The notes below the pieces were generated by a model. It ran no database searches, was not told where the DNA came from, and saw nothing but the letters and a program-made list of their open reading frames with translations. This document shows, piece after piece, positions 4,132 to 17,828 of a stretch of 24,000 nt of DNA. This DNA comes from Methanococcus maripaludis. Its GTDB lineage: Archaea > AGJL01 > Methanococci > Methanococcales > Methanococcaceae. Location: contig NZ_JACDUL010000002.1 of assembly GCF_013760955.1 (NCBI RefSeq), positions 108,719-132,718 of the forward strand. The letters are read 5' to 3'. The position numbers were made by a program, and so were the translations under genes. Position 1 is the first letter of the stretch. Every line of letters begins with the position of its first letter.

Positions 4132-4252
4132 GAAGTAATTTGTCAGAATAACCACCACCGATATAATATAATCAATTATTCTGTTACTATTGTAACTTAA
4201 CATTTTCGAAATTATTGCAACATGACTCTAAATGGTAGGGAAAATGTTCACA

Positions 4253-4506
4253 AACCACCATAGATTCAAAATCATACGAATACGCTAAGTAGCGACAGTT
4301 TCAATTTTATGAGCTTTTCAGTACTCGTCGATCGTGTAGTTTCGAATGTTTGATATTCAGTTCAGAATTACATCGGCAAGAAGGCAGTATTATTCAGTAA
4401 CCTGGTTAACGTTCAACAATTTAACATATTGGTGTAAACAGCCAGTCGATAAGATCACTGAACCACCATAGATTCAAAATCTTACACGAACGTACCGTAG
4501 CGACAG
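4253..4506 (+). repeat. Composite repeat locus L, with a period of about 208 bp
   Basis: The core aaccaccatagattcaaaatc...gtagcgacag occurs at 4253-4298 and 4461-4506. Between the cores lie tttcgaatgtttgatat (4340-4356) and attacatcggcaagaaggcagtattattcagtaa (4367-4400). Copy 2 has an extra 9-bp stem, ccgtagcga (4495-4503) pairing with tcgctacgg (4526-4534). Confidence 0.85.
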
Positions 4507-4579: not shown

Positions 4580-6613
4580 TTAGATATCAAACACTGACTT
4601 CGAATTAAATAAATTTTTCAAGGGGTTATCCACTTTGATTGATAATGTGTATAACGCACACGCATCCTTAAAATCTCGCTCATTAACTTCAGTATCTAAC
4701 CTGGCTTTCGCAAATGCGGTTGAAAGCCTAATTATTGTTTCAACCAGACGCGTTGATGTATTTTGATTAGCTCTTCTGTTAACGTAATATTCAACAATCG
4801 AATCTTCAACCGATTTAGGAACTTTAACGGACAGTGTCCTTGTGTATTCAATGAAATCCAGTAAAAATTCTCGATTAACCGTATAATCTCCAATATCTAT
4901 GGTTTTATCCAATAAGCTATCGGGATTGACTGATCCGAGGTTATGGTTTCTAATCGTTTTTCGAGCAATTTCAGCATCAAGTTCCTTGTTTTGACCAATA
5001 CCCATGTCAAATATCAAGTCAAATCGATCTATAACTGGTTTAGTTAGCTCAATCTGTTCAATTAATCCTTTTGTATTGTCCCAACACCCATTTCGAGGGT
5101 TACATGCAGCAAGAATTGCAATTTCCGCAGGTAGGCATATGTTTAATCCTGCTTTTGAAATGTGGATTTCTTGAGATTCCATCGCCTCTAAAAGATGTGT
5201 TGACATCTCTTTATTTACCGTTAATTCATCAAGTGATGCAGTTCCACCGTTTTTACAGACGAGTAATCCCGGTTTAGTTACCCAGCCACTATCACCAACT
5301 GAAGTTCTTTCTTGTTCCACAGCTGCCGTTAATCCAACACCCGAGCTTCCTGTAATCGATCCGTATATGTTTTTTGGAAGTTTTGACACGGTACGAAGCA
5401 TTTCAGATTTACCTACTCCCGGATCTGCAACTAACAGGATATGTAAGTTATTACGGTTTAATCCAACGGCGCCTTTCAGCTGTTGAAGTAGCAGCGCTTT
5501 TTTTACGTCTTCGTGACTATGGATTGTCGGGATCAGTATTTCAGAGAGCTTATCGAGTAACTTGATATCGTTTTTGGAACAGTACTCAACAACCTGTTTT
5601 ATGTACGTTATTTTGTTTTCGTCCAATCTATCGACTATAATATCTTCGACAGCCGCAATACTTTTAGCGTAAATGTAAATATCGTAGATAAGTCCGTTTT
5701 TCTGTTTTCTCTTGAACGGGATTCCGATAACATTTAGTTTACCGCTAAAGAGTCCCGGTGAATTCTCAAAGAACACGGTAATGTATTTTGGAGGTTCCTG
5801 TGGGTTATCCATTGTTTCTAACGGTTGCTGTAACTTAATTTCCTGAATATCGATATAATCAGATTCCAATTCGTTCAACATCATTTCTTTTCCACATTTA
5901 CACCACACCTTTGAAATGTCCTCAAACATGTTGTCAAGTGTTTCTTCCCGATTATTGCCGCAACCACATGTGTAAGCACCTTTTTTTAGCATTACCTTTT
6001 TAGATGACGCAATTGATATGATACCTTCAAATTCTACGACTTTTCCGATTTTAGCAGAGTTTATGTCTTCGATATCACATTTGTATTTATCAGGTAGGTT
6101 CTGAATAACGATTCCATCACAATCGGGTTTTTCATTCTTCAATAACCTGTAAGCTTCAGTATACGCTTCCGAAAACATTTTGAAGACGTCATTGGGACTG
6201 CTATCGAGTTTATTCAGCAGAAATTTATCGGTACCAAACTCCTCTTGAAAGTCAACGATAACCGTTTTACCGCTTTCAATCTTTCTTTTGTGTTTATCCA
6301 GCAGGTATTTTACAATGTCAGATAATTCAGTTTCCGATTTATGTAAATAACCAGATTTATCTTCGTAAAGTATGTCGGCATCCATTAATTGGTTTATGTA
6401 TTTGCTATATGTGGACCGATGTAGTCCTGCACTGAGTAAGATCCCCTTTAGATCTTCAACGGCAATATTCACGTTGGAATGGGTATTGAATATGTAAAGG
6501 ATCGTGTCTCGAGCAGTAGGCTTTTCACCGTTATTTGTTTCTTTATACGATTTAACTGATTTTATAATCTGTTCTTGCAGTGTTTCTGTTAGTGCTATTT
6601 TTTCGTTGACCAT
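4580..6613 (-). CDS. mcm: MCM family replicative helicase with an N-terminal wHTH-like region
   Basis: Walker A is ADPGVGKSEML and Walker B is ASLDELT. Sensor/arginine-finger-like motifs are AILAACNP and IDRFDLIF. A Cys4 zinc motif reads CGCG...CKCG. The track start is a TTG; the ATG at 6613 (MVNEKIAL), preceded by gaagagg, is more likely. Confidence 0.85.
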   Translation of the reverse strand: MVNEKIALTETLQEQIIKSVKSYKETNNGEKPTARDTILYIFNTHSNVNIAVEDLKGILLSAGLHRSTYSKYINQLMDADILYEDKSGYLHKSETELSDIVKYLLDKHKRKIESGKTVIVDFQEEFGTDKFLLNKLDSSPNDVFKMFSEAYTEAYRLLKNEKPDCDGIVIQNLPDKYKCDIEDINSAKIGKVVEFEGIISIASSKKVMLKKGAYTCGCGNNREETLDNMFEDISKVWCKCGKEMMLNELESDYIDIQEIKLQQPLETMDNPQEPPKYITVFFENSPGLFSGKLNVIGIPFKRKQKNGLIYDIYIYAKSIAAVEDIIVDRLDENKITYIKQVVEYCSKNDIKLLDKLSEILIPTIHSHEDVKKALLLQQLKGAVGLNRNNLHILLVADPGVGKSEMLRTVSKLPKNIYGSITGSSGVGLTAAVEQERTSVGDSGWVTKPGLLVCKNGGTASLDELTVNKEMSTHLLEAMESQEIHISKAGLNICLPAEIAILAACNPRNGCWDNTKGLIEQIELTKPVIDRFDLIFDMGIGQNKELDAEIARKTIRNHNLGSVNPDSLLDKTIDIGDYTVNREFLLDFIEYTRTLSVKVPKSVEDSIVEYYVNRRANQNTSTRLVETIIRLSTAFAKARLDTEVNERDFKDACALYTLSIKVDNPLKNLFNSKSVFDI

Positions 6614-7673
6614 TTCATGCCTCTTCAACTGATTGGTAGTGTATTTGCAGTGTTTATTCTCAAAATACCACTGATGAAGATACTATATAAATACAACTAA
6701 CCAAAACGTTAGAAAAATTTGGCAGGGTGAATCAAAAACGAAAGTCATCGAAAGTAAAACAAGCGAGTATCACAGTCTAATGAACTAACAAAGTGATATA
6801 CCGCGTTACTCCTGAGCAGTAACACAAGAGTAACAATGATACAATGATGGTAACACAAAATAGACAGTATGAAAAAAGTAATTCGCAATCCAAAAAGAAG
6901 CCTGTAGCAACGTTACCTGACATAATAAGTGATAATAGAATAATTAGTATATGTATATATGTAAATGTTATAGTGGTTCTTAGGATATATACTTACCGGT
7001 TTTCGGTACCTAACGTTCCGGATAGATAAACATCGGATCTACAACAACGATAACTCTATTTTAGTAATTTTGAGTAAGCTGTATCGAGAAATTTACTGAT
7101 ATAGTGAGCTTTGGAAATTAAAGAAACGTGTTCACTCTAGAAATTTATGAAACACGATTTCGCGGGCTTTGACGAGTACCAAACTCACGCTGCTTCTCAA
7201 TCACATAATATATGATAGCGTAGGCTATAGGCGAAGTATTCACGTAGCGCTTCTGATTTAGAGATATAGCGAATACCAAACCGTACAAAATCAAACAACT
7301 AAAAGTGGTGATCTATGTGGATATTCAAACGCGTTTAACCCGATAATAATGAAAACATGTCAGCTGCGAGTATTTACGATACTCTAGGATTCTACATGAC
7401 GATTCCAAGAATGTGTGATCGAAATTCACGTTTTCAGCTGATTTCTCTCTACGTATTCCAAAACGCAGCGTTAATAGATGATATACTAGTGAATAACCAA
7501 TATCGAGGTGATATAATGACACGTTGAACAATATACCCTACTAATGAGCGTATATGTGGTAAATATCGATGTAAACCACACTATAACTCTAAACATACAC
7601 GATGACGCACATTAGTGAGTCAGAACTGATGAAATAACAAAATTTGATAAAACAAACAAAAAATGGTGAAACT

Positions 7674-8066: not shown

Positions 8067-8114
8067 CCAAGTAATTTGTGTATCAACACATTACTTTGGA
8101 TCCATCCGATCTGA

Positions 8115-8360
8115 TTACATCGTCAAGAAGGCGATGTATTATTCAGTAAATATATACAATGTTCATTAAGCGAATTTAGAAACGTAAACAGCCGGTCGAT
8201 ACGATTAACAAACCACCATAGATTCAAAATCTTACACGAGCGTACCGTAGCGACAGCTTCAGGTTCATCAGCTTCCTAGTATGTGTTGAACATGAGTTGG
8301 TTTCGATGTTTGACATCACATTATAATTACATCGTCAACATGGCGATGTATTGTCTGACA
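8115..8360 (+). repeat. Composite repeat locus R; same modules as locus L, in direct orientation, with a period of about 211 bp
   Basis: The hairpin module attacatcgtcaagaaggcgatgtattattcagtaa lies at 8115-8149 and recurs at 8326-8360. The 73-bp core at 8184-8256 is about 90% identical by eye to 4434-4506. tttcgatgtttgacatcac lies at 8301-8319. Confidence 0.85.
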
Positions 8361-8636
8361 CGAGTTTAACGATTTATACGAAACTCAATAATGTATGCTG
8401 AAATGTACAAGATTACGAAACTGTGTTCTAAACGTTGGGACGAAACAATCAATGAACCATCATGGATTAAAATGTTGGTATCAACGCTTCATAACAACTG
8501 TTTTAGAAATGCGAGCTTTCCCGTACATAACGTTCAGCGCCATGAACCACACAGACAATACGCGACAAATTCTCTCGATATCATAATTTATATGATGTAG
8601 TTCATAATCGGTATGTAATAAGAAGAGAGTGGTTAA

Positions 8637-9406: not shown

Positions 9407-10453
9407 CTATTCGGATTCTGTATTCTCGCTAGATAACTTTTCCATATACTTCTCACGAATCTTTGATAGTGTTTCACCAGTTTCCTTAAGCACTGCGAAG
9501 TTGTATGTCTGGATACTCGACCATCCGTAGACACTCTTTAGCCATGTTTGCATTGACATCTCGGTAGCGACAGCTGTTTGCATTGGTATTTTACGAACAT
9601 CAGCTGATCCAATTGACATTTCAGTAGGGATAACCGATACATTTCCGTTTTTCAACAGAATTGCTTCAGCGTTATGATCTTTCGCTTTTATCACGTCACC
9701 AGGTTTTACAACGCCCCATTCAAGCATGTCACTAATTTTAGGTAACGAACGTCGTGTGATGTCTTTAGTTTTCTTTGATACGTATTTTGCTTTATCCATC
9801 AGGTTAACGTAGTAATCTTCGTATCCTGAAACCGGTAGAATCTTTTCAGCGTTTATATAACATTCATTGTTGATTTTGTACGGTGTTAACTGAAAACAGT
9901 TCATATCAACGTTATTCTTGTTCAACCACGCTACCGCTGACAGTGTTTGTTCGTCGTATTCACCTGCAGCGAGAATGATTCTCTGTTTCTCGTTAAATTT
10001 GGTAACATCGTTCGCATCTAAAAATTCGTTAAGTTTACGAATTCCTAATTCATATGATGTGAGCTCACCGATTTCGTATTCATTGCGGTATTTCTCGATG
10101 TATGGTGCGTAGACCAGTTTAACTAACTCATCGGGACTTTCGACTTTCGCATAACTTGCAGCGTATCGAATTGCCTGAAACTCGAACGCTTCTTTACGGT
10201 TTTCGATGTCTTTCTTATCTCGCTTAATCTCGATTAACACAATGTTTCCGTTGTTGTCGACTGCTGTAAGATCACTTCGACCGTTTTTCTCGTTTTTAAC
10301 CTGTCGTCCAACAATCAACAGTGATTCTTCATCATCACACAGCATATCGATACTGCATCTCAAGATCTCTTCAATATCGTTTTCGTTCATCCCAAGTTGC
10401 GAAAACGTGGTAGCTTCGACTTTCGCTGCCTTTTTGTTAGTGATACTGTACAT
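9407..10453 (-). CDS. NucS/DUF91-like PD-(D/E)xK nuclease with an uncharacterised C-terminal domain
   Basis: The nuclease core reads GRSDLTAVDNNGNIVLIEIKRD...FQAIRYAASY (D...ExK plus Q..RY). The likely start is ATG 10453 (MYSITNKK), with ggggtg about 9 nt upstream. The C-terminal ~110 aa (...QTWLKSVYGWSSIQTYNFAVLKETGETLSKIRE) is unassigned. Confidence 0.6.
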   Translation of the reverse strand: MYSITNKKAAKVEATTFSQLGMNENDIEEILRCSIDMLCDDEESLLIVGRQVKNEKNGRSDLTAVDNNGNIVLIEIKRDKKDIENRKEAFEFQAIRYAASYAKVESPDELVKLVYAPYIEKYRNEYEIGELTSYELGIRKLNEFLDANDVTKFNEKQRIILAAGEYDEQTLSAVAWLNKNNVDMNCFQLTPYKINNECYINAEKILPVSGYEDYYVNLMDKAKYVSKKTKDITRRSLPKISDMLEWGVVKPGDVIKAKDHNAEAILLKNGNVSVIPTEMSIGSADVRKIPMQTAVATEMSMQTWLKSVYGWSSIQTYNFAVLKETGETLSKIREKYMEKLSSENTESE

Positions 10454-10761
10454 AATTACTGCACCCCGATCCCCGATAACCATTACGGTCGTTAAAATGA
10501 TTTGTAACTGTACAGTACTATTCGAATGGTTGTTATTTATGCGTTGTTAATTAACACAACTGATTATTGTGAAATGATTATACCGCATTCGTTAGCATTG
10601 CTACCGCAACCTGAAACGTGTTTACAATATCAAAAAAAAATTTATACTCCTGAGCAATTTGACGTCGTAGTGTTACGATACGTCACAAGTGAGAATTTAT
10701 TTTTCCTCCTCAACTATGACTCGTCGTAGTACCAAAGTGTTATATGTTGTCTCGTTGCGTT

Positions 10762-11293
10762 GCCCACTCGTTGTTCGTGTTACTCACAACTCGTTGCACT
10801 CGCATTGGGCGCTCCGCGCTATAATTATATATAATACGTAAAAAAAATATACTCCAATCTTATACGCTAATCGTATAAAACTGGTAGCTTACGTCTGGTT
10901 ATGTATTCGGTAAAGTGTTAACCAGTATTTTTACTCACCGTACGATATCACTTAATTCCCGGCTTTACTAACTCAGTACGTTGTCTTGTACCTTTACTCT
11001 ACACTTCAGAGTTTGTTAGTTTACGAATCGACAGTTCGAAACGACCGTAACCTCAAGCATGTCTACCGTTATCCAGTTATGCGGGTGTACTCTGATTGAA
11101 CCATTTAAACTCATCGGGTCCGCTTGTGTTCACGTAATCACCGACTTGAGGTGATTATCACTGAGGGTATACAGAGGGATGTTCAGACCTACACACATAT
11201 ACCATTGTACTACGTTAGTTTGTACAATGAGAGTTAATTTCCGTTTAGTTAAGTGAACAGAGTACCGTATTCTCTTGTCCCGCAAGTCCTTCT
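10762..11293 (+). ncRNA. Candidate structured RNA, paralog A. Strand is tentative and the family is not recognised.
   Basis: The unit aligns along its whole length with 12330-12825. It has no conserved ORF. Four hairpins are maintained by compensatory changes. A TATA-like box lies upstream. Confidence 0.4.
10811..10836 (+). promoter_or_regulatory. Conserved GC block plus TATA-like element upstream of unit A
   Basis: gctccgcgctataattatatataata. The block gggcgctccgcgctataattat is identical in unit B. Confidence 0.35.
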
Positions 11294-11513
11294 ACGTTTT
11301 GTTGTACTTTGTAATCTTATATGGGGAAGTCGTAGTGAGTATATATACTTTATCGAAGTATGTACATGAATTGATTGTCATCGTCACGATGTAATCCCAG
11401 CGTAGTTTGCAGAGCTAAAGCGTTATTATCGTAATTGTATGGCGAATTAACCAACTAATCATCTCAACACGTTTTTACATCCCTGTAGCTTACGGTTTAT
11501 CTGTATTGGTTAG

Positions 11514-12080
11514 CGTTCGTTATTCACAGTAGTTCATAACTCACTTTTAGCAGGGTATACTCAAGCTGATTAATTCACATTAACTTTTGAGATCACTAAC
11601 TGTAATTTTGCGTAATGCTAATGCTCGTTGTTCTATGCTATCGCAACTCGCATTTACCGAACGTACTGCTGATTCAACTGCTACGTACTATTTCCAGAGA
11701 GCATTTCATGTGATGGTACGGTAGTGATAGTTATTTGGTAATGTATGCTGTATTTCACTCACGTTTCAGCTTTCAGTACATTTACGGCAATTCTCGGCAT
11801 ATCATCGTTCGTTATTCACAGTAGTTCATAACTCACTTTTACCGAAAAATACTCAAGAGTTAATTACCTCGTGCTGATAACGCCGTTTAAATATTGTTGA
11901 TGTATTTGTGTGTTATTTCACGTTAAAAAACACATTAAATCTCGTAATGGTTTACAAAGCGGTTATGTTCGAGTATGTTATGGTTTAACCGTAATCAGCA
12001 GATATATCATGTATTTCACTTACCGTATTTTCTCTGATATCGTCGCTCGTTGTTCTCTGCTATCACAACTCACTTTTACC
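11514..12080 (+). repeat. Four dispersed copies of a 36-bp module (U1-U4)
   Basis: U1 (11514-11549) and U3 (11806-11841) are identical: cgttcgttattcacagtagttcataactcactttta. U2 (11623-11658) and U4 (12045-12080) differ at 4 of 36 positions: gctcgttgttct(a/c)tgctatc(g/a)caactc(g/a)c(a/t)tttacc. The two types are about 70% similar by eye. A related motif lies at the heads of units A and B. Confidence 0.85.
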
Positions 12081-12329
12081 CGGGATACCACACAGTTTAG
12101 TAACTACTGAGACGTTATTTGATTGTAACCGTATTGCATGACCTACAGTTATCTCGAAGTGGATTACCAATGTACCGTACCAGTCAAGCCTTCGGCTAAC
12201 CGATTCGTTAACGTGGTGAAAAGAGTATTCGTAAACATTACCTTAACACAGTGAGTTATGTTCAAAGTCGCGTTCGCTGTACGCTGTACGCTTTACGCTT
12301 TTTGAACTAACTCATCTACTCACTGCTTC

Positions 12330-12825
12330 GCCCACTCGGTGTTCGTCAACTCACACCTCATTACACTCGTATTGGGCGCTCCGCGCTATAATTATTATAT
12401 ATTACATATCAGTTGTTTATAGTCTAATCTTATGTACATTTTACATAAAATGACTTGCTTACGTCCGGTTAGTTAATCTGATAAGTGTTAACCGGTATTT
12501 TGTTCATCTGTATGATATCACCCAATTCCCGGCGTTATTAACACAACATTACACTTACATGTGTGTTAACTTACGAAATGAATCTGACCAAATCGACCAT
12601 AACCTTGAGCACGTTTACCATTTTTCAGTTATGGTTACATGACTCCTGATTGAACCATTTAAACTCTCATGTCCGCTTTTAACTTCACCAACCTACTGTC
12701 GGTGAGGGTATCTGAGGGATGTTCAGGCAGTACGTTATAACCACCATTGCACTTTTGTAGCGCAATGTGAACGTTTAATCCAATTTAATGGAATTTCATA
12801 TGTTCTCGTGTCCCGCACGTTCTTC
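12330..12825 (+). ncRNA. Candidate structured RNA, paralog B
   Basis: See paralog A. The same conserved blocks are present, including a perfect 21-mer ctgattgaaccatttaaactc (12646-12666, matching 11092-11112). Confidence 0.4.
12377..12405 (+). promoter_or_regulatory. Conserved GC block plus TATA-like element upstream of unit B
   Basis: gctccgcgctataattattatatattac. Confidence 0.35.
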
Positions 12826-13455
12826 CATATGTTAGTAGTAACTCTATCACAATCGTTGATACCATATATATGTTATTATTGTAATCGATTTAAACGCGTT
12901 TGATCTGATTTTTGAGTATTGTGATTGTATGATTTGGAAATACTGCAGTAATGAATATGTAAAAAACGTATCAGCGTTACATACACGGCTTATCAGATTT
13001 TTGTACCTTCCATAGGTTGACGCTCACGGTCAATCCATACTGTAATCGGTGATATGCAGTCGATAGGTAGGTGATGATTAACATAACCAGTGTTTGGTGA
13101 ATATACAAAAAAGTATCGCACCCTTTTTTACAAAAAACCGTTCAAAAGTATTACACAAAATGTGAACACATTACCACTTTGTGAGCGTGACTCACATCGT
13201 ACGTTCTGTATAGACCTGCAGCTTTTTTGTGAAATCTGTTAACTCGACACCCGCGTGTTAATTTTGGTCCGATTGCTCGGACCACTTGCCATTTAGGGTA
13301 AGTCGTATAAAAAAGTTAAAGCTAGCTAATAACTATGTATGATCATGACAATATATAAGTTTTTCGGTAATTGGCGGATATTCAGTGCTACATTTTATAT
13401 ACTAACCACTTGTACACTTGTGTATTGGTTACACGGTGCTATGTACGTACCGTTA

Positions 13456-13636: not shown

Positions 13637-13683
13637 AATACTGGAAAAACGTAATGTTTGAAAAAAGAGTCATACCCTTTTTT
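13637..13683. repeat. 47-bp repeat ending in an A6...T6 terminator-like element (copy 1)
   Basis: aatactggaaaaacgtaatgtttgaaaaaagagtcataccctttttt. It is near-identical to 14258-14304. Shorter relatives lie at 13107-13129 and 14339-14353. Confidence 0.8.
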
Positions 13684-14257: not shown

Positions 14258-14304
14258 AATACTGAAAAAACGTAATGTCTGAAAAAAGAGTCATACCCTT
14301 TTTT
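14258..14304. repeat. 47-bp repeat ending in an A6...T6 terminator-like element (copy 2)
   Basis: aatactgaaaaaacgtaatgtctgaaaaaagagtcataccctttttt. Confidence 0.8.
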
Positions 14305-14439
14305 GAATATTGTTCGTTGAACTTGGTGTGACAAAATTGGTCATACCCTTTTTCACGTGATGTGATCTAGTTTTGATATTATTATCGTATAGCGCTTAGT
14401 CACAGTTATCAGCGTTTCAAAAAAGCATTACCGTTATTA

Positions 14440-14736
14440 TTACTGCGGCATTTCAAATGGAAGTGGTGTACCTGTTTCTTCAATATACTGTTTTACCACG
14501 TGTTCTGCGACAGTGTCCCAGTCAATGAAGTCTACGATGTAGGATAACACCACAGGTCGTAGTGATCCGAGTTCTGTCATCGGGTGATGTATAAGTTCTG
14601 ATTTCAGAAGAACGATTAATTCAACGTATGATTTGCAGCAGTTAATTCGTTCGGTCCAGTTACCGTTGGTGTATACGTAAGTTTCCATCGCGGATATAAT
14701 CCTGTTTGTTAGTTCTGTTGAAATTGTAGGGTTCAT
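14440..14736 (-). CDS. Hypothetical protein (98 aa)
   Basis: The ORF has the SD aaggtgatatt directly before its ATG and a TAA stop. No family was recognised. Confidence 0.5.
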   Translation of the reverse strand: MNPTISTELTNRIISAMETYVYTNGNWTERINCCKSYVELIVLLKSELIHHPMTELGSLRPVVLSYIVDFIDWDTVAEHVVKQYIEETGTPLPFEMPQ

Positions 14737-15363: not shown

Positions 15364-15573
15364 CACTTGTATACTCACTACACCTATACAAGTGTTCCAG
15401 TGGCCACATAGAAACGTTAACACAGTTTAACATGTCTATGGGTTTCACTTGTATGCCCACCGCACTTATCCACTTGTATACTCATTACAAGTGCACATGT
15501 GGTTCCATTATACACTTGTTACTGTGCATAGGTATTCCACGTGTACACTTACCCACATAGAAACGTTAACACA
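15364..15573. repeat. CACTTGTA(T) repeat and inverted-repeat field
   Basis: One inverted repeat is cacttgtata (15364-15373) pairing with tatacaagtg (15385-15394). A second is cacttgta (15471-15478) pairing with tacaagtg (15486-15493). The palindrome cacatgtg lies at 15494-15501. The 21-bp direct repeat ccacatagaaacgttaacaca occurs at 15404-15424 and 15553-15573. Confidence 0.85.
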
Positions 15574-15821
15574 TGCCACAGTGTATGCGTATATCACTTA
15601 TATTGCGATTAAAGTCTCACGGTATTCATTCCTGCGTTTACTCACTTATGGTACCACAGTACTCGTTTACCGTGTCTTCATTACCTGTATCCGCTTAATA
15701 CGCCTTAGACTGTGGGTACCATCACTTATGCTACTGTTTTTAGCATCTATCACTTATATCGGACCGTTTAATGTTGAATCGATAAAAAAAGCGCAGAACA
15801 TTATATAATCGTGATTCAGGA

Positions 15822-15867
15822 GTGTAGGGTCGTGTAACTGTGGTGTAAATTGGTGTAGGGGGGTGTA
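15822..15867 (+). promoter_or_regulatory. Five helically phased GTGTA iterons
   Basis: gtgta starts at 15822, 15832, 15843, 15853 and 15863, giving spacings of 10, 11, 10 and 10 bp. A GGGG-tgta-CCCC hairpin and the hairpin cgcgg-ttttt-ccgcg (about 15884-15898) follow. Confidence 0.6.
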
Positions 15868-16012
15868 CCCCTGCAAAAAATGTCGCGGTTTTTCCGCGCT
15901 TAATTACTCTATAGTGTAATATGGAGTGTTTTCCCGAAAATTTACAATTTTTCGAAAACTTCGGTTAATTAACATAAACGTCTGATTAATCGATAAAAAA
16001 GAGTAAGTGGTG

Positions 16013-16243: not shown

Positions 16244-16305
16244 GATATCACCAAAAGGTTATAGCTTAAATTTTGGAGTTTTGTATTTCGTATATCCATC
16301 GTACC

Positions 16306-16824
16306 TCAAAGCCATAATACTTCTTTCGGTTTTGAACACGATCTGTTCATATGGGTACGCTTCAACATTGTTGATAAGGTTTTGTATTTCCTTATATCAT
16401 TTTCACTGAGTTTACCTGTAGCTATTAATCGACGTAATCTACTTGTACCTTCACTAATTCCTCTATCAATCACATAACCTTGTATAATATCGTAATGTTC
16501 TTCATCTAGTTTGTGTGGCCTTCCGATTCTACAGTAAACCGCATATTCGATTGCTTCGTGTTCCTTTAAGTGTCGGTATTTTAGTTCGCCTAACACTTCA
16601 TGGTTTATCAAATAATGTACAACTGCAGGTGGTCCGATAGAGTCTCTACCCATTTGCCGATTTAACTCGAACTTAATGTTTCCTCATTCGATAGCTTTTT
16701 CGAGGATATCTGTTGTGTAAAACCCTCGACCGAAATCTAATGCTGTTTTATCCTGTATCGTCGTTCCAAATCGTTCGATCGATACAGCATGTTTTTTACA
16801 GGTTCCGTGATGTAGGTTCTTCAT
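16306..16824 (-). pseudogene. DUF3990-like gene interrupted by a single in-frame TGA
   Basis: The minus-strand reading is MKNLHHGTCKKHAVSIERFGTTIQDKTALDFGRGFYTTDILEKAIE-TGA-GNIKFELNRQMGRDS..., continuing in the same frame into the track ORF 16306-16653. The TGA lies at 16684-16686. HHG and DFGxGFYxT are the DUF3990 signature. The stop falls where the family usually has Trp (..A..W.). Confidence 0.6.
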
Positions 16825-17239
16825 GTGTTTCATAAGTTACATCTCTATAATACCTCGGAATCCGCAATATATAAATAATTCGGTTTATTTTTCAAATTTA
16901 ACGTGTTATGGTATACGGGTAGAGAAATATCGCGATATAACTGTGATATGGGGTGACTTGGTAAGATATAACATATTACATAATTTTCCAGATGTTACGG
17001 TAAGTCACGCTCACGCGGTTCCAAATCTGGATCTGATATTTATAATTTTCCGAAAAGTTTATAAATGGGTCTTTAATGTGTTTGAAAAAAGTCACGTTTT
17101 GTCACGGTGCTTTGTGTTACATTACCAAGGTTAACAGGGTAGCTACAACGTCCTCAAAACGGCAATGTCTTAGGTGCATCACATTTTGCAGACTACGATA
17201 AGTGATTCCATTAATGACATACACCAGTGTAAAATGGTA

Positions 17240-17644: not shown

Positions 17645-17687
17645 GATTTCAAGTCCGGCGCCTTTGGCCAAGCTCAACCACCTCTGC
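17645..17687 (-). tRNA. Truncated tRNA-Ser(UGA): the 5' half only, through the anticodon loop
   Basis: The minus strand reads GCAGAGG-TG-GTT-GAGCTTGGCCAAA-GGC-G-CCGGA-CTTGAAA-TC. This has archaeal class II tRNA-Ser layout, with a long D loop containing GG and the anticodon TGA. After TC the expected 3' anticodon-stem strand TCCGG is replaced by TCTCGACGGAC followed by T6. No variable arm or T arm is present. Confidence 0.6.
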
Positions 17688-17711
17688 TCGCACTTGTACT
17701 TAAGCGATTCA

Positions 17712-17724
17712 GCTATATATACTT
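17712..17724 (-). promoter_or_regulatory. TATA box for the tRNA-Ser fragment
   Basis: The minus strand reads aaagtatatatag and ends about 25 nt upstream of tRNA position 1. This is canonical archaeal spacing. Confidence 0.5.
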
Positions 17725-17828
17725 TTCTATTTTTCTTTACAATACTAGCAATAATTTTTATTTAAAGAACGTAACTAGCCATAAAAATTAATATTTAGGT
17801 TTAATTTTGAAATTTAAAAATTAAAGTA

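What the first reader, a model, noticed from the sequence alone, without database searches (positions are those of the whole stretch)
10762..12825. Two diverged ~500-bp paralogous units with compensatory hairpin changes: candidate novel structured RNA
Units A (10762-11293) and B (12330-12825) lie in direct orientation. They align end to end at roughly two-thirds identity by eye. The alignment has many indels that are not multiples of 3, and stops occur in all frames, so the units are not coding.

Conservation is block-wise:
- gcccactcg
- attgggcgctccgcgctataattat (GC block plus TATA-like)
- gcttacgtc
- gtgttaacc
- gatatcac..aattcccggc
- a perfect 21-mer, ctgattgaaccatttaaactc (11092-11112 and 12646-12666)
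- tgagggatgttcag
- tgtcccgca

Four hairpins persist although their sequences differ:
- H1: ttatacg/cgtataa (10860-10878) versus ttatgta/tacataa (12430-12448), with three compensatory pairs.
- H2: ctggtta/taaccag (10895-10925) versus ccggtta/taaccgg (12465-12495).
- H3: aatcacc/ggtgatt (11136-11156) versus cttcacc/ggtgagg (12683-12707). The local alignment is ambiguous. This helix contains a T:G pair that works only as G-U on the + strand.
- H4: cattgtac/gtacaatg (11203-11229) versus cattgc/gcaatg (12745-12767).

Compensatory change points to selection on RNA (or ssDNA) structure rather than on a protein-binding sequence. I do not recognise the motifs as RNase P, SRP, a group I/II intron, tRNA or any other family I know.
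Basis: seen in the sequence. Interest (0 to 1): 0.85.

Follow-up and report, generated by a model that had tools for sequence, protein, structure and literature searches.

The report
Conserved structured noncoding units, Methanococcus element
Two ~0.55-kb noncoding sequence units on a mobile element of the methanogen Methanococcus keep the same set of hairpins through many paired mutations in two species, so they most likely encode a previously undescribed structured RNA, although whether they are transcribed, and from which strand, has not been shown.

Summary
Units A (10761-11353) and B (12329-12876) are direct, diverged paralogs (~69% identity) with no conserved ORF and no 3-base periodicity.

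They lie in a ~4-kb gene-free stretch of a tRNA-Ser-integrated, MCM-encoding element of Methanococcus maripaludis. I found both units, in the same order, in two more M. maripaludis strains and in M. vannielii SB, plus one A-type copy in a different mobile-element context.

Across these about six lineages (62-81% identity), seven local hairpins stay 98.8% paired. Sixteen of their 43 pairs changed on both sides (0/500 shuffles; slid controls 0-1). One hairpin varies from 9 to ~35 bp. Between species, the spacers around the units are not conserved. No Rfam family matches.

The following favour the minus strand:
- a five-helix domain that pairs only there, through G-U pairs;
- lower consensus folding energy and stronger shuffle z-scores there;
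- all T-runs of 6 or more near the units, including T7-8 directly after hairpin H1 in every A-type copy.

Transcription is untested. The local hairpins are purely Watson-Crick, so a cis-acting DNA role (for example a replication origin) or transcription of both strands remains possible. Function is unknown.

The parts
10761..11353 (-). Unit A, full extent of homology shared by all copies. The predicted minus-strand RNA runs from about 11315 to about 10840.
   Evidence: Alignments; nhmmer E = 1e-190 to 1e-91 in five loci; coordinates.
12329..12876 (-). Unit B, the paralog of A. It is 96-99% identical between M. maripaludis strains and about 69% identical to the M. vannielii B copy.
11338..11350 (-). 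Right-end TATATATA box of unit A, invariant in all copies, with an A-rich ATAAAG just upstream on the minus strand. Candidate promoter of the minus-strand RNA. The equivalent box in B is at 12861-12873.
   Evidence: Invariant columns; coordinates. Promoter function is inferred, not shown.
11266..11296 (.). H5, a two-tier hairpin (outer CGTA/TACG, inner C[G/T/A]TG-TCCCG-CA[C/A/T]G). In B it is at 12799-12829.
   Evidence: Four outer pairs and one inner pair changed on both sides.
11203..11229 (.). H4 hairpin (CATTGTAC/GTACAATG). In B it is at 12745-12767.
   Evidence: Three pairs with double changes, 100% paired where present. Absent from the alternative middle module of the L006 and L019 A-copies.
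11160..11186 (.). Conserved block GAGGGTAT(A)C(A/T)GAGGGATGTTCAG. On the minus strand this reads as two CCCUC motifs. In B it is at 12702-12726.
   Evidence: A CCUCCCUC motif also occurs in the otherwise different middle module of L006 and L019.
11136..11156 (.). H3, a variable-length hairpin at a fixed position: 9 bp in A, 8-10 bp in B (12683-12707), about 20 bp in M. vannielii A and about 35 bp (90 nt) in M. vannielii B.
   Evidence: Each homolog folded on its own.
11092..11112 (.). The perfect 21-mer CTGATTGAACCATTTAAACTC (B: 12646-12666). Its CTGA pairs with the TCAG of the GAGGG block, enclosing H3.
   Evidence: pairs 421-425/570-574, with a CG/UA covariation.
10938..11076 (-). P-domain, a nested multi-helix domain (P1-P6) that forms on the minus strand only. 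It includes the GATATCAC...ATTCCCGGC block. In B it is at 12508-12628.
   Evidence: The 24 pairs of P1-P5 are 100% paired in 7 sequences; 6 changed on both sides, 6 vary only through G-U, and 2 are invariant G-U. Consensus energy -18.0 (minus) against -1.6 kcal/mol (plus). Shuffle z -4.9 against -3.0.
10895..10925 (.). H2 hairpin, a 7-bp stem with a 17-nt loop. In B it is at 12465-12495.
   Evidence: Four stem variants, all Watson-Crick: CTGG/CCAG, CCTG/CAGG, CCGG/CCGG, CCAG/CTGG.
10857..10881 (-). H1 hairpin. The 7-bp Watson-Crick core is 10860-10878. On the minus strand it extends to 10 bp through two G-U pairs, plus an outer 3-bp helix that covaries. In B it is at 12427-12451.
   Evidence: Stem variants ACG/CGT, GTG/CAC and GTA/TAC, with at least 5 independent double changes.
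10840..10847 (-). T8 run on the minus strand directly after H1. Candidate terminator of the unit A RNA.
   Evidence: T7-8 at the same place in all five A-type copies (window, L006, L014, L016, L019) and absent from B-type copies.
10809..10836 (.). Invariant GC hairpin GGCGC-N3-5-GCGC(T) (10809-10819) next to the AT-rich TATA-like stretch (10820-10836). In B these are 12376-12386 and 12387-12405.
   Evidence: The loop length varies (3 to 5 nt) while the stem is invariant.
10761..10798 (.). Left module: ACTC(R)-rich, with the small hairpin G-N-TGT...ACA-N'-C. In B it is at 12329-12365.
   Evidence: The N/N' pair takes four Watson-Crick states: T-A, A-T, G-C, C-G (pair 76-95). Related modules recur at 11514, 11623, 11806 and 12045.

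Best explanation
Units A and B are two anciently duplicated genes for a previously undescribed structured noncoding RNA of about 0.45-0.5 kb. They are carried as backbone of a small tRNA-Ser-integrating, MCM-encoding mobile element of Methanococcus.

The RNA is most likely read from the window's minus strand, the strand of all neighbouring element genes. Transcription would start about 25 nt downstream of the invariant TATATATA box at the right end of each unit. In A-type copies it would end at hairpin H1 followed by U7-8.

The RNA would have two halves. The conserved 3' half is the multi-helix P-domain, then H2, then H1. The 5' half is modular and exchangeable. It holds H5, H4, a variable-length hairpin H3, and long conserved unpaired segments, including C-rich CCCUC motifs.

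Shown:
- the paralogy of the two units;
- the absence of coding potential;
- conservation across two species while the surrounding spacers decay;
- extensive compensatory change in at least 8 helices;
- no match to any Rfam family.

Inferred:
- that the units are transcribed at all;
- the strand and the transcript ends;
- the function. My working guess is a trans-acting regulatory or scaffold RNA of the element that uses its conserved unpaired segments to bind RNA or protein. That specific guess has low confidence, about 0.15.
For: 1. Real paralogs: E = 1.5e-40.

2. Noncoding.

3. Homologs and synteny. Both units are present in the order g98 - B - A - (cargo) - p130 - MCM in M. maripaludis L006/L007 and L014 and in M. 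vannielii SB L016. There is also an A-type copy in IMG/VR contig L019.

4. Selective conservation. Between species, only the units are conserved within the 4-5 kb gene-free stretch, at 72-78% nt. That is at least as well conserved as MCM (69% nt, 59% aa), p130 and g98 (both 50% aa).

5. Both paralogs retained. A and B keep type-specific features in both species, so the duplication predates the split and both copies were kept.

6. Local hairpins. 43 pairs are 98.8% paired, and 16 pairs changed on both sides against 9.7 +/- 1.7 in shuffles (0/500). Slid controls give 0-1.

7. Alignment-level structure signal. Column-shuffle alifold z is -7.0 (plus) and -8.9 (minus) for the whole unit.

8. H3 is a variable-length stem at a fixed position, 9 to ~35 bp.

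9. Strand evidence.
   - In the P-domain, 24 pairs are 100% paired in 7 sequences on the minus strand. Of these, 6 vary only through G-U and 2 are invariant G-U; all would be A.C mismatches on the plus strand.
   - Consensus energy of that domain is -18.0 against -1.6 kcal/mol.
   - Shuffle z is -4.9 against -3.0 for the P-domain and -6.5 against -4.3 for H1+H2.
   - Every homopolymer run of 6 or more between 10400 and 13100 is a T-run on the minus strand.
   - T7-8 directly follows H1 in all five A-type loci.
   - Unpaired positions on the minus strand are A-rich and C-poor.

10. Held-out test. Covariance models built from M. maripaludis copies alone score the held-out M. vannielii and L019 copies 33-39 bits above a sequence-only model. 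This is a weak indicator because the two model types carry different information content per position.

11. No Rfam family, tRNA or tmRNA matches.
Against: - There is no expression data of any kind. The promoter and terminator calls rest on AT-rich near-palindromic boxes and on T-runs.
- The seven local hairpins vary almost only between Watson-Crick pairs (16 double changes against 2 one-sided changes). That is what a DNA hairpin, or a structure needed on both strands, would give.
- Within helices shared by both strands, G-U counts show no strand bias: 11 against 13 cells.
- H3 and H5 fold slightly better on the plus strand.
- Single-sequence folding energies are unremarkable, z -0.6 to -2.0.
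- The structure-bearing covariance models for the two strands score the held-out copies almost equally.
- B-type copies have no T-run after H1, so the 3' end of the B transcript is undefined.
- The P-domain was found by RNAalifold on these same sequences, so some over-fitting is possible.
- Only about six lineages exist, all in one genus.
Confidence: 0.5

Rival explanations
1. This is a cis-acting DNA element of the mobile element, not an RNA gene. Candidates are a replication origin or initiation zone for the MCM replicon, a single-strand initiation signal, or a control region between divergent promoters. The hairpins would act as DNA cruciforms or ssDNA hairpins, and the ACTC(R) repeats as iterons.
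For: - The units lie within a few kb of the MCM and p130 genes in four loci.
- The left part has an origin-like layout: ACTC(R) repeats, a GC palindrome, a 20-40 bp pure AT stretch, then palindromes H1 and H2.
- ACTCAC is enriched 11-fold on one strand.
- The local hairpins covary almost exclusively between Watson-Crick pairs.
- For pT26-2-family integrated plasmids of Methanococcales, origins were predicted in intergenic, ORF-poor regions near the replication gene (PMC6972569).
Against: - Conservation covers about 550 bp, includes a hairpin that varies from 9 to ~35 bp, and includes a G-U-dependent, strand-specific multi-helix domain. Double-stranded protein-binding sites do not behave this way.
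- Stems change sequence freely. One pair takes four states, which argues against base-specific protein recognition.
- The MCM gene has been swapped (58-62% aa identity) between strains whose units are 88-99% identical.
- The L019 copy sits among unrelated genes, with no MCM in the 9 kb seen.
- A separate repeat array brackets the MCM-p130 module and is a better origin candidate.
Confidence: 0.2
2. This is the first reader's version: a structured RNA of about 450 nt read from the plus strand. It would start downstream of the left TATA-like box (10820-10836 / 12387-12405) and end after H5.
For: - Sequence conservation begins right after the variable spacer that follows the left TATA-like stretch.
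- H5 is followed by T4-5 in A-type copies.
- H3 and H5 fold slightly better on the plus strand.
- The base of H3 has a conserved U.G on the plus strand (direct reading).
- The whole-unit alifold z on the plus strand is still -7.0.
Against: - The P-domain cannot form on the plus strand: -1.6 against -18.0 kcal/mol, and about 29 of 168 cells would be A.C mismatches.
- There is no T-run of 6 or more on the plus strand anywhere between 10400 and 13100.
- Every region except H5 scores better on the minus strand.
- Unpaired positions on the plus strand are U/C-rich and G-poor.
Confidence: 0.12
3. Both strands are transcribed from the TATA boxes at the two ends of each unit (convergent promoters). 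This would give fully complementary sense and antisense RNAs that both need the hairpins, as in antisense copy-number or maintenance control.
For: - Invariant near-palindromic TATA boxes sit at both ends of every unit.
- The local hairpins are kept strictly Watson-Crick, as expected if both strands must fold.
- Strand-specific wobble evidence exists for each strand in different helices.
Against: - This rests on inference from symmetry only.
- The T-runs lie on one strand only.
- The P-domain is one-sided.
Confidence: 0.1
4. The units are non-functional repeats: decaying pseudogenes, MITE- or IS-type remnants, or neutral duplications.
For: The region is ORF-poor, and a neighbouring gene (DUF3990) carries a frameshift in this window.
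Against: - There is no ORF remnant and no periodicity.
- There are only two syntenic copies per element, and I saw no terminal inverted repeats when reading the unit ends.
- The units are conserved between species while the flanking spacers are not.
- Hairpins are maintained through at least 20 double substitutions.
- Unit B is the best-conserved segment between strains.
Confidence: 0.02

Closest known systems
Large structured ncRNAs of unknown function associated with mobile elements or prophages (GOLLD, ROOL, HEARO, OLE; named from memory)
   Same: Several hundred nucleotides long, with many helices supported by covariation and long conserved unpaired segments. Carried on mobile DNA, narrowly distributed, and found by comparative sequence analysis before any function was known.
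   Different: These are bacterial families. There is no sequence or structure match to any Rfam model. This one is archaeal, occurs as two diverged paralogs per element, and has an exchangeable middle module.
ColE1-type replication control RNAs (RNA II primer and RNA I antisense; from memory)
   Same: A plasmid RNA of about 550 nt with a series of stem-loops, encoded close to the replication functions. Strictly Watson-Crick stems would suit sense/antisense pairs.
   Different: No homology. This is an MCM-based archaeal replicon. There is no evidence for an RNA-DNA hybrid origin or an antisense partner. The units persist unchanged while the MCM gene is swapped.
Single-strand origins and single-strand initiation signals of plasmids and phages (ssoA/ssoU, ssi; from memory)
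   Same: Noncoding segments of 150-300 nt whose hairpins, rather than their sequence, are conserved, and which are strand-specific.
   Different: Those belong to rolling-circle or conjugative ssDNA intermediates. No Rep, relaxase or other ssDNA-replication gene was seen in the window or in the related loci. The units are twice as long and carry their own TATA boxes and T-run.
Archaeal replication origins with ORB / mini-ORB repeats around an AT-rich unwinding element (from memory)
   Same: An AT-rich stretch flanked by dyad-symmetric elements and short direct repeats, next to a replication gene.
   Different: ORB elements are conserved in sequence and bound by Orc1/Cdc6. Here the stems covary freely, no Orc1/Cdc6 gene is present, and conservation extends about 400 bp beyond the AT-rich part.
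pT26-2-family integrated plasmids of Methanococcales (PMC6972569)
   Same: Integrated elements of M. maripaludis that carry an MCM-type replication gene, have ORF-poor intergenic regions, and integrate at tRNA genes.
   Different: I did not test whether this element carries the pT26-2 core genes. None was seen in the window. The paper passages retrieved by my term search did not mention a conserved structured noncoding unit.

Membership tests
Any Rfam 15 family (4227 covariance models) | Score at or above the family's gathering threshold | tested here: not met
   No hits in the window. In L016, L006 and L014 the only hit is the flanking tRNA-Ser. At E <= 10 over 10400-13400 there are only five weak hits of 15-17 bits, none inside the structured cores.
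tRNA / tmRNA | Cloverleaf detected by ARAGORN | tested here: not met
   None in the window.
Protein-coding gene or pseudogene | A conserved reading frame, 3-base periodicity of substitutions, and indels in multiples of 3 | tested here: not met
   Stops in all six frames of all copies. No code reassignment helps. Mismatch phase counts are flat. The alignments contain many indels that are not multiples of 3.
Structured noncoding RNA (generic) | Helices kept by compensatory base changes beyond what phylogeny and chance give | tested here: met
   0/500 shuffles reach the observed number of cells changed on both sides in either set, or the observed number of pairs changed on both sides in the local hairpins. 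For the P-domain, 46/500 shuffles reach the observed number of pairs changed on both sides. Slid controls give 0-2 against 16 and 7 pairs. Column-shuffle alifold z is -7 to -9.
Structured noncoding RNA (generic) | The locus is transcribed as a discrete RNA | not testable with these tools
   No expression data are accessible. There are only indirect signals: TATA boxes, and T-runs on the minus strand.
Structured noncoding RNA (generic) | Strand-specific pairing: G-U tolerated on one strand, where the other strand would have A.C | tested here: inconclusive
   Met for the P-domain and for the extension of H1 on the minus strand. Not seen in the local hairpins, where G-U counts are 11 against 13 cells. 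H3 and H5 lean slightly to the plus strand.
Archaeal replication origin | Repeated, sequence-conserved initiator-binding sites flanking an AT-rich unwinding element; supports replication in cis | tested here: inconclusive
   An AT-rich stretch and ACTC(R) repeats are present. However, the stems are not sequence-conserved. The cis-replication assay cannot be run here.
MITE / IS remnant | Terminal inverted repeats, target-site duplication, and multiple dispersed copies | tested here: not met
   There are only two syntenic copies per element. Reading the aligned ends shows no terminal inverted repeats.

The most novel reading that the evidence does not exclude
The units are the RNA part of the element's own replication or maintenance machinery. 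One version is a transcript that primes or licenses initiation for a replicon in which no primase or Orc1/Cdc6 gene was seen (MCM is the only recognisable replication gene in the window). Another is a sense/antisense pair from the convergent TATA boxes that sets copy number or incompatibility. Either would explain why the units stay constant while MCM and the cargo genes are swapped, why two diverged paralogs are retained, and why the stems are kept strictly Watson-Crick. It would be the first RNA-based replication control described for an archaeal mobile element.
Probability: 0.12. Interest if true: 0.85.

Novelty: new member of a known kind. Interest (0 to 1): 0.58.

Why it matters
To my knowledge, few large (over 300 nt) structured noncoding RNAs other than rRNA, RNase P RNA and SRP RNA have been described in archaea, and almost none on archaeal mobile elements.

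This candidate has unusually clean comparative support for its size. It also has a built-in paralog comparison (A against B), a variable stem and an exchangeable module.

It sits in genetically tractable organisms. M. maripaludis has good genetic tools, and M. vannielii SB is a cultured type strain with a complete genome. Transcription, strand, ends and phenotype can therefore be tested directly.

It also flags the 4-5 kb "gene-free" part of this family of MCM elements as functional backbone rather than junk. That matters for how such islands are annotated.

The limits are the narrow distribution (a handful of Methanococcus genomes) and the unknown function.

Tried and rejected
- **Alternative genetic codes.** Reading TGA, TAG or TAA as sense opens no long ORF in 10.5-18 kb.
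- **BLASTN of 10400-13400** against PLSDB plasmids and INPHARED phages found nothing.
- **Exact-pattern scans of IMG/VR** with the 21-mer and the GC/TATA block found nothing.
- **Genome-contig scans.** The scan with GATATCACNNNATTCCCGGCNTTA returned nothing. That null is not trustworthy: M. vannielii SB contains an exact match, so either it is not in that collection or the region is masked. The MCM-based scans of viral contigs and genome contigs also found nothing.
- **Metagenome scan.** It returned one chance hit on a 62% GC contig.
- **Second IMG/VR pattern.** It gave 24 loci, of which only L019 is real.
- **Single-sequence folding z-scores** are weak, -0.6 to -2.0.
- **Covariance-model test of the strand.** The minus- and plus-strand structure models score the held-out copies almost equally, so this test does not separate the strands.
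- **Conserved small ORF** from the GAGGGATG motif: rejected, because the ORFs are 5-25 aa and not conserved, and the M. vannielii B copy lacks the ATG (direct reading).
- **Neighbouring proteins g98 and p130.** Pfam, PHROGs and NCBIfam gave no hits. AlphaFold single-sequence models had pLDDT 47 and 38, too poor for fold search.
- **Targets for the conserved 21-mer.** There is no complementary site in the window at up to 3 mismatches.
- **Literature searches** found no description of these units.
Full report
**1. What is in the window**

The window is Methanococcus maripaludis DNA. The 358-aa protein at 9407-10483 (minus strand) is 100% identical to an M. maripaludis RAMA-domain protein. Two small neighbouring proteins are identical to RefSeq entries shared by three M. 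maripaludis genomes.

Positions 1 to about 17,736 (GC 33-41%) belong to an integrated mobile element. It carries:
- a ResIII-type helicase;
- an EVE-domain protein;
- an MCM helicase (4580-6628, minus strand);
- a 130-aa protein, here called p130;
- a ferredoxin;
- the RAMA / NucS-like protein.

Further right, on the minus strand, lie a 98-aa gene (g98, 14443-14736), a 76-aa gene and a frameshifted DUF3990 gene. The element ends at a 91-nt copy of the 5' half of tRNA-Ser(UGA) with its promoter, at 17645-17735. To its right are AT-rich host genes: PC4 and corrinoid / URO-D methyltransferases.

Between 10484 and 14440 there is no credible ORF in any genetic code. Units A and B lie in this gap.

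**2.

A and B are direct repeats at 69% identity, E = 1.5e-40. The window holds no third copy. All frames carry stops, no ORF is shared between copies, and mismatches show no codon phase.

The shared homology is slightly longer than reported: A = 10761-11353 and B = 12329-12876. Each unit ends on the right in an invariant TATATATA box.

**3. Homologs**

Database scans by exact pattern were mostly empty, and at least one empty result is unreliable (see "tried and rejected"). Walking out from neighbouring proteins worked better.

- M. maripaludis GCA_016907005.1 and GCA_017875815.1 (L006, L007) and GCA_014207325.1 (L014) carry both units in the same order.
- So does Methanococcus vannielii SB (L016). 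Its copies are at L016:6988-7541 and 4661-5340, with nhmmer E = 1e-91 and 1e-98.
- One more A-type copy sits in IMG/VR contig UViG_2860317346_000001 (L019). Its neighbours are unrelated genes: a histone-fold protein, a PD-(D/E)XK nuclease and an HTH_17 protein.

Pairwise identities among lineages are 62-81%.

In M. vannielii the layout is g98, then about 5 kb without genes holding B and then A, then p133, MCM, EVE, a type I R-M system, an integrase and tRNA-Ser. The units are therefore backbone of a small integrative element family.

Within the gene-free stretch, only the units are conserved between species, at 72-78% nt. The spacers between and beside them are not. The units are at least as well conserved as MCM (69% nt, 59% aa), and better than p130 and g98 (50% aa each).

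The MCM gene has been exchanged between strains (58-62% aa identity) whose units are 88-99% identical.

A-type and B-type copies keep type-specific features in both species. Examples are the P5 hairpin sequence and the T-run after H1. So the duplication is older than the split between the two species' elements, and both copies have been retained.

**4. Structure**

On a sequence-only MAFFT alignment of eight copies, seven local hairpins comprise 43 pairs. These are the left-module hairpin, the GC hairpin, H1, H2, a small hairpin inside the P-domain, H4 and H5.
- 98.8% of cells are paired.
- 16 pairs changed on both sides, against 9.7 +/- 1.7 after shuffling (0/500).
- With the partner columns slid by 1-3 positions, only 0-1 pairs changed on both sides.

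Specific cases:
- H1 occurs as ACG/CGT, GTG/CAC and GTA/TAC.
- H2 occurs as CTGG/CCAG, CCTG/CAGG, CCGG/CCGG and CCAG/CTGG.
- One pair of the left-module hairpin takes four Watson-Crick states.
- The inner stem of H5 occurs as CGTG/CACG, CTTG/CAAG and CATG/CATG.

Placing these changes on the obvious tree gives at least 20 independent double substitutions. This count is my own, made.

H3 is a hairpin of variable length at a fixed position: 9 bp, 8-10 bp, about 20 bp and about 35 bp.

The L006 and L019 A-copies carry a different middle module in place of the 21-mer, H3, GAGGG and H4 segment. They share the rest of the unit.

Consensus folding against column-shuffled alignments gives z = -7.0 (plus strand) and -8.9 (minus strand) for the whole unit. 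The signal is concentrated in 10741-11080. Single-sequence stabilities are ordinary.

**5. Which strand, and RNA or DNA?**

The local hairpins are almost purely Watson-Crick, so on their own they fit RNA from either strand or a DNA hairpin. Three lines of evidence point to the minus strand.

(i) *A strand-specific domain.* Between H2 and the 21-mer, the minus strand forms a nested multi-helix domain (A 10938-11076, B 12508-12628).
- Its 24 core pairs are paired in all seven sequences.
- Six pairs changed on both sides, six vary only through G-U, and two are invariant G-U.
- One position runs through A-U, G-U and G-C.
- On the plus strand, about 29 of 168 cells would be A.C mismatches.
- On an alignment of M. 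maripaludis copies only, the consensus energy is -18.0 kcal/mol on the minus strand and -1.6 on the plus strand.
- Shuffle z-scores are -4.9 and -3.0.

(ii) *H1 extends on the minus strand.* H1 grows from 7 to 10 bp through two G-U pairs on the minus strand only, and gains an outer 3-bp helix that covaries.

(iii) *T-runs.* Every run of six or more identical bases between 10400 and 13100 is a T-run on the minus strand. T7-8 directly follows H1 in all five A-type loci, including L019 and M. vannielii. A second T6-9 follows about 200 nt further along the same strand.

Softer points agree with the minus strand. All neighbouring element genes are on it. Its unpaired positions are A-rich and C-poor. 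An A-rich ATAAAG precedes the right-end TATA box on that strand.

Some evidence points the other way.
- H3 and H5 fold a little better on the plus strand.
- B-type copies have no T-run after H1.
- The covariance-model test on held-out copies did not separate the strands.
- The P-domain was predicted from these same sequences.

**6. Best model and rivals**

I put about 0.5 on minus-strand ncRNA genes of about 0.45-0.5 kb. The other readings are:
- 0.10 on both strands being transcribed from the convergent TATA boxes;
- 0.20 on a cis-acting DNA element, such as an origin or a control region;
- about 0.02 on non-functional repeats.

The DNA reading is helped by the origin-like left part (ACTC(R) repeats, GC palindrome, AT stretch, palindromes) and by published origin predictions in ORF-poor regions of related elements (PMC6972569). 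Four findings weaken it:
- the G-U-dependent domain;
- the variable stem;
- the swapped MCM;
- a separate repeat array that brackets MCM and p130 (4226-4506 and 8114-8500) and is also conserved in M. vannielii.

The function is unknown. The long conserved unpaired segments suggest binding to a protein or another RNA. These segments include the 21-mer, GGTCCGCTT, and the two CCCUC motifs on the minus strand, a motif type that persists even in the alternative middle module. That suggestion is only a guess.

**7. Comparison with known families, and novelty**

No Rfam family matches. In kind, the closest things are the large mobile-element-associated ncRNAs of bacteria (GOLLD, ROOL, HEARO, OLE) and plasmid replication-control RNAs. 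Membership of any of these was tested and not met.

I rate it a new member of a known kind: a structured ncRNA family carried on a mobile element. It has good comparative support, a narrow distribution and no known function. Interest is 0.58.

Noticed in passing
window 4226-4506 and 8114-8500; L016:8186-8257: A family of 73-nt repeats (core GAACCACCATAGATTCAAAATC) and 27-nt repeats occurs as two copies on each side of the MCM-p130 module. It is also conserved in M. vannielii. This is a plausible replication-origin or iteron array for the element.
   Followed up: partly
window 15638-15964; L016:1978-2304: A 327-nt block is 88% identical between M. maripaludis and M. vannielii, the best-conserved noncoding block of the element apart from the att site. 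It lies just downstream of a cluster of CACTTGTATAC-type repeats at 15364-15501. A 119-aa ORF called here has only 48-81% aa identity to the L006 gene call, so it may be a second conserved noncoding element.
   Followed up: no
window 17645-17735; L016:21333-21467: The right border of the element is a 91-nt copy (96% identical to M. vannielii) of the 5' half of tRNA-Ser(UGA) with its promoter. The tRNA is not reconstituted at this end. In M. vannielii the intact tRNA lies next to the integrase.
   Followed up: partly
window 10632-10760 (minus strand): Left of unit A, the M. maripaludis and L019 A-type loci share a further ~125 nt. It holds a hairpin (TGACGTCGTA...TACGATACGTCA) and ends in T9 on the minus strand (10632-10640). 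A T-run at the same distance occurs in all five A-type loci. This could be a short (~165-200 nt) minus-strand transcript starting at the left TATA box.
   Followed up: partly
window 11514-11565, 11623-11658, 11806-11857, 12045-12080: Four extra copies of the ACTC(R) left module (CTCGTTGTTC-N-AACTCAC-TTTTA) lie in the spacer between A and B, without the rest of a unit. Each has a small GTTG/CAAC or GTTA/TAAC hairpin. ACTCAC is enriched 11-fold on the plus strand of 10.5-14.4 kb.
   Followed up: partly
window 13108-13128, 13662-13682, 14283-14303, 14333-14353: There are four copies of AAAAAG-N9-CTTTTT (AAAAAGAGTCATACCCTTTTT). This is a short hairpin with an A-run on one side and a T-run on the other, so it looks like a bidirectional terminator.
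   Followed up: no
window 16262-16833 (minus strand): The DUF3990 gene is split by a frameshift near 16390 relative to the intact 192-aa gene in L006. The adjacent 76-aa gene is 100% identical.
   Followed up: no
window 4580-6628 compared with L006, L014, L013, L016: The element is mosaic. The MCM proteins of strains with nearly identical units, p130 and g98 are only 58-62% identical. Cargo between unit A and MCM differs by strain: RAMA plus ferredoxin here, RHS toxins in L006, nothing in M. vannielii.
   Followed up: partly
Genome-contig collection: The pattern GATATCACNNNATTCCCGGCNTTA occurs exactly in M. vannielii SB (L016, B copy), yet the scan of genome contigs returned nothing. Empty results from that scan should not be read as absence.
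   Followed up: no
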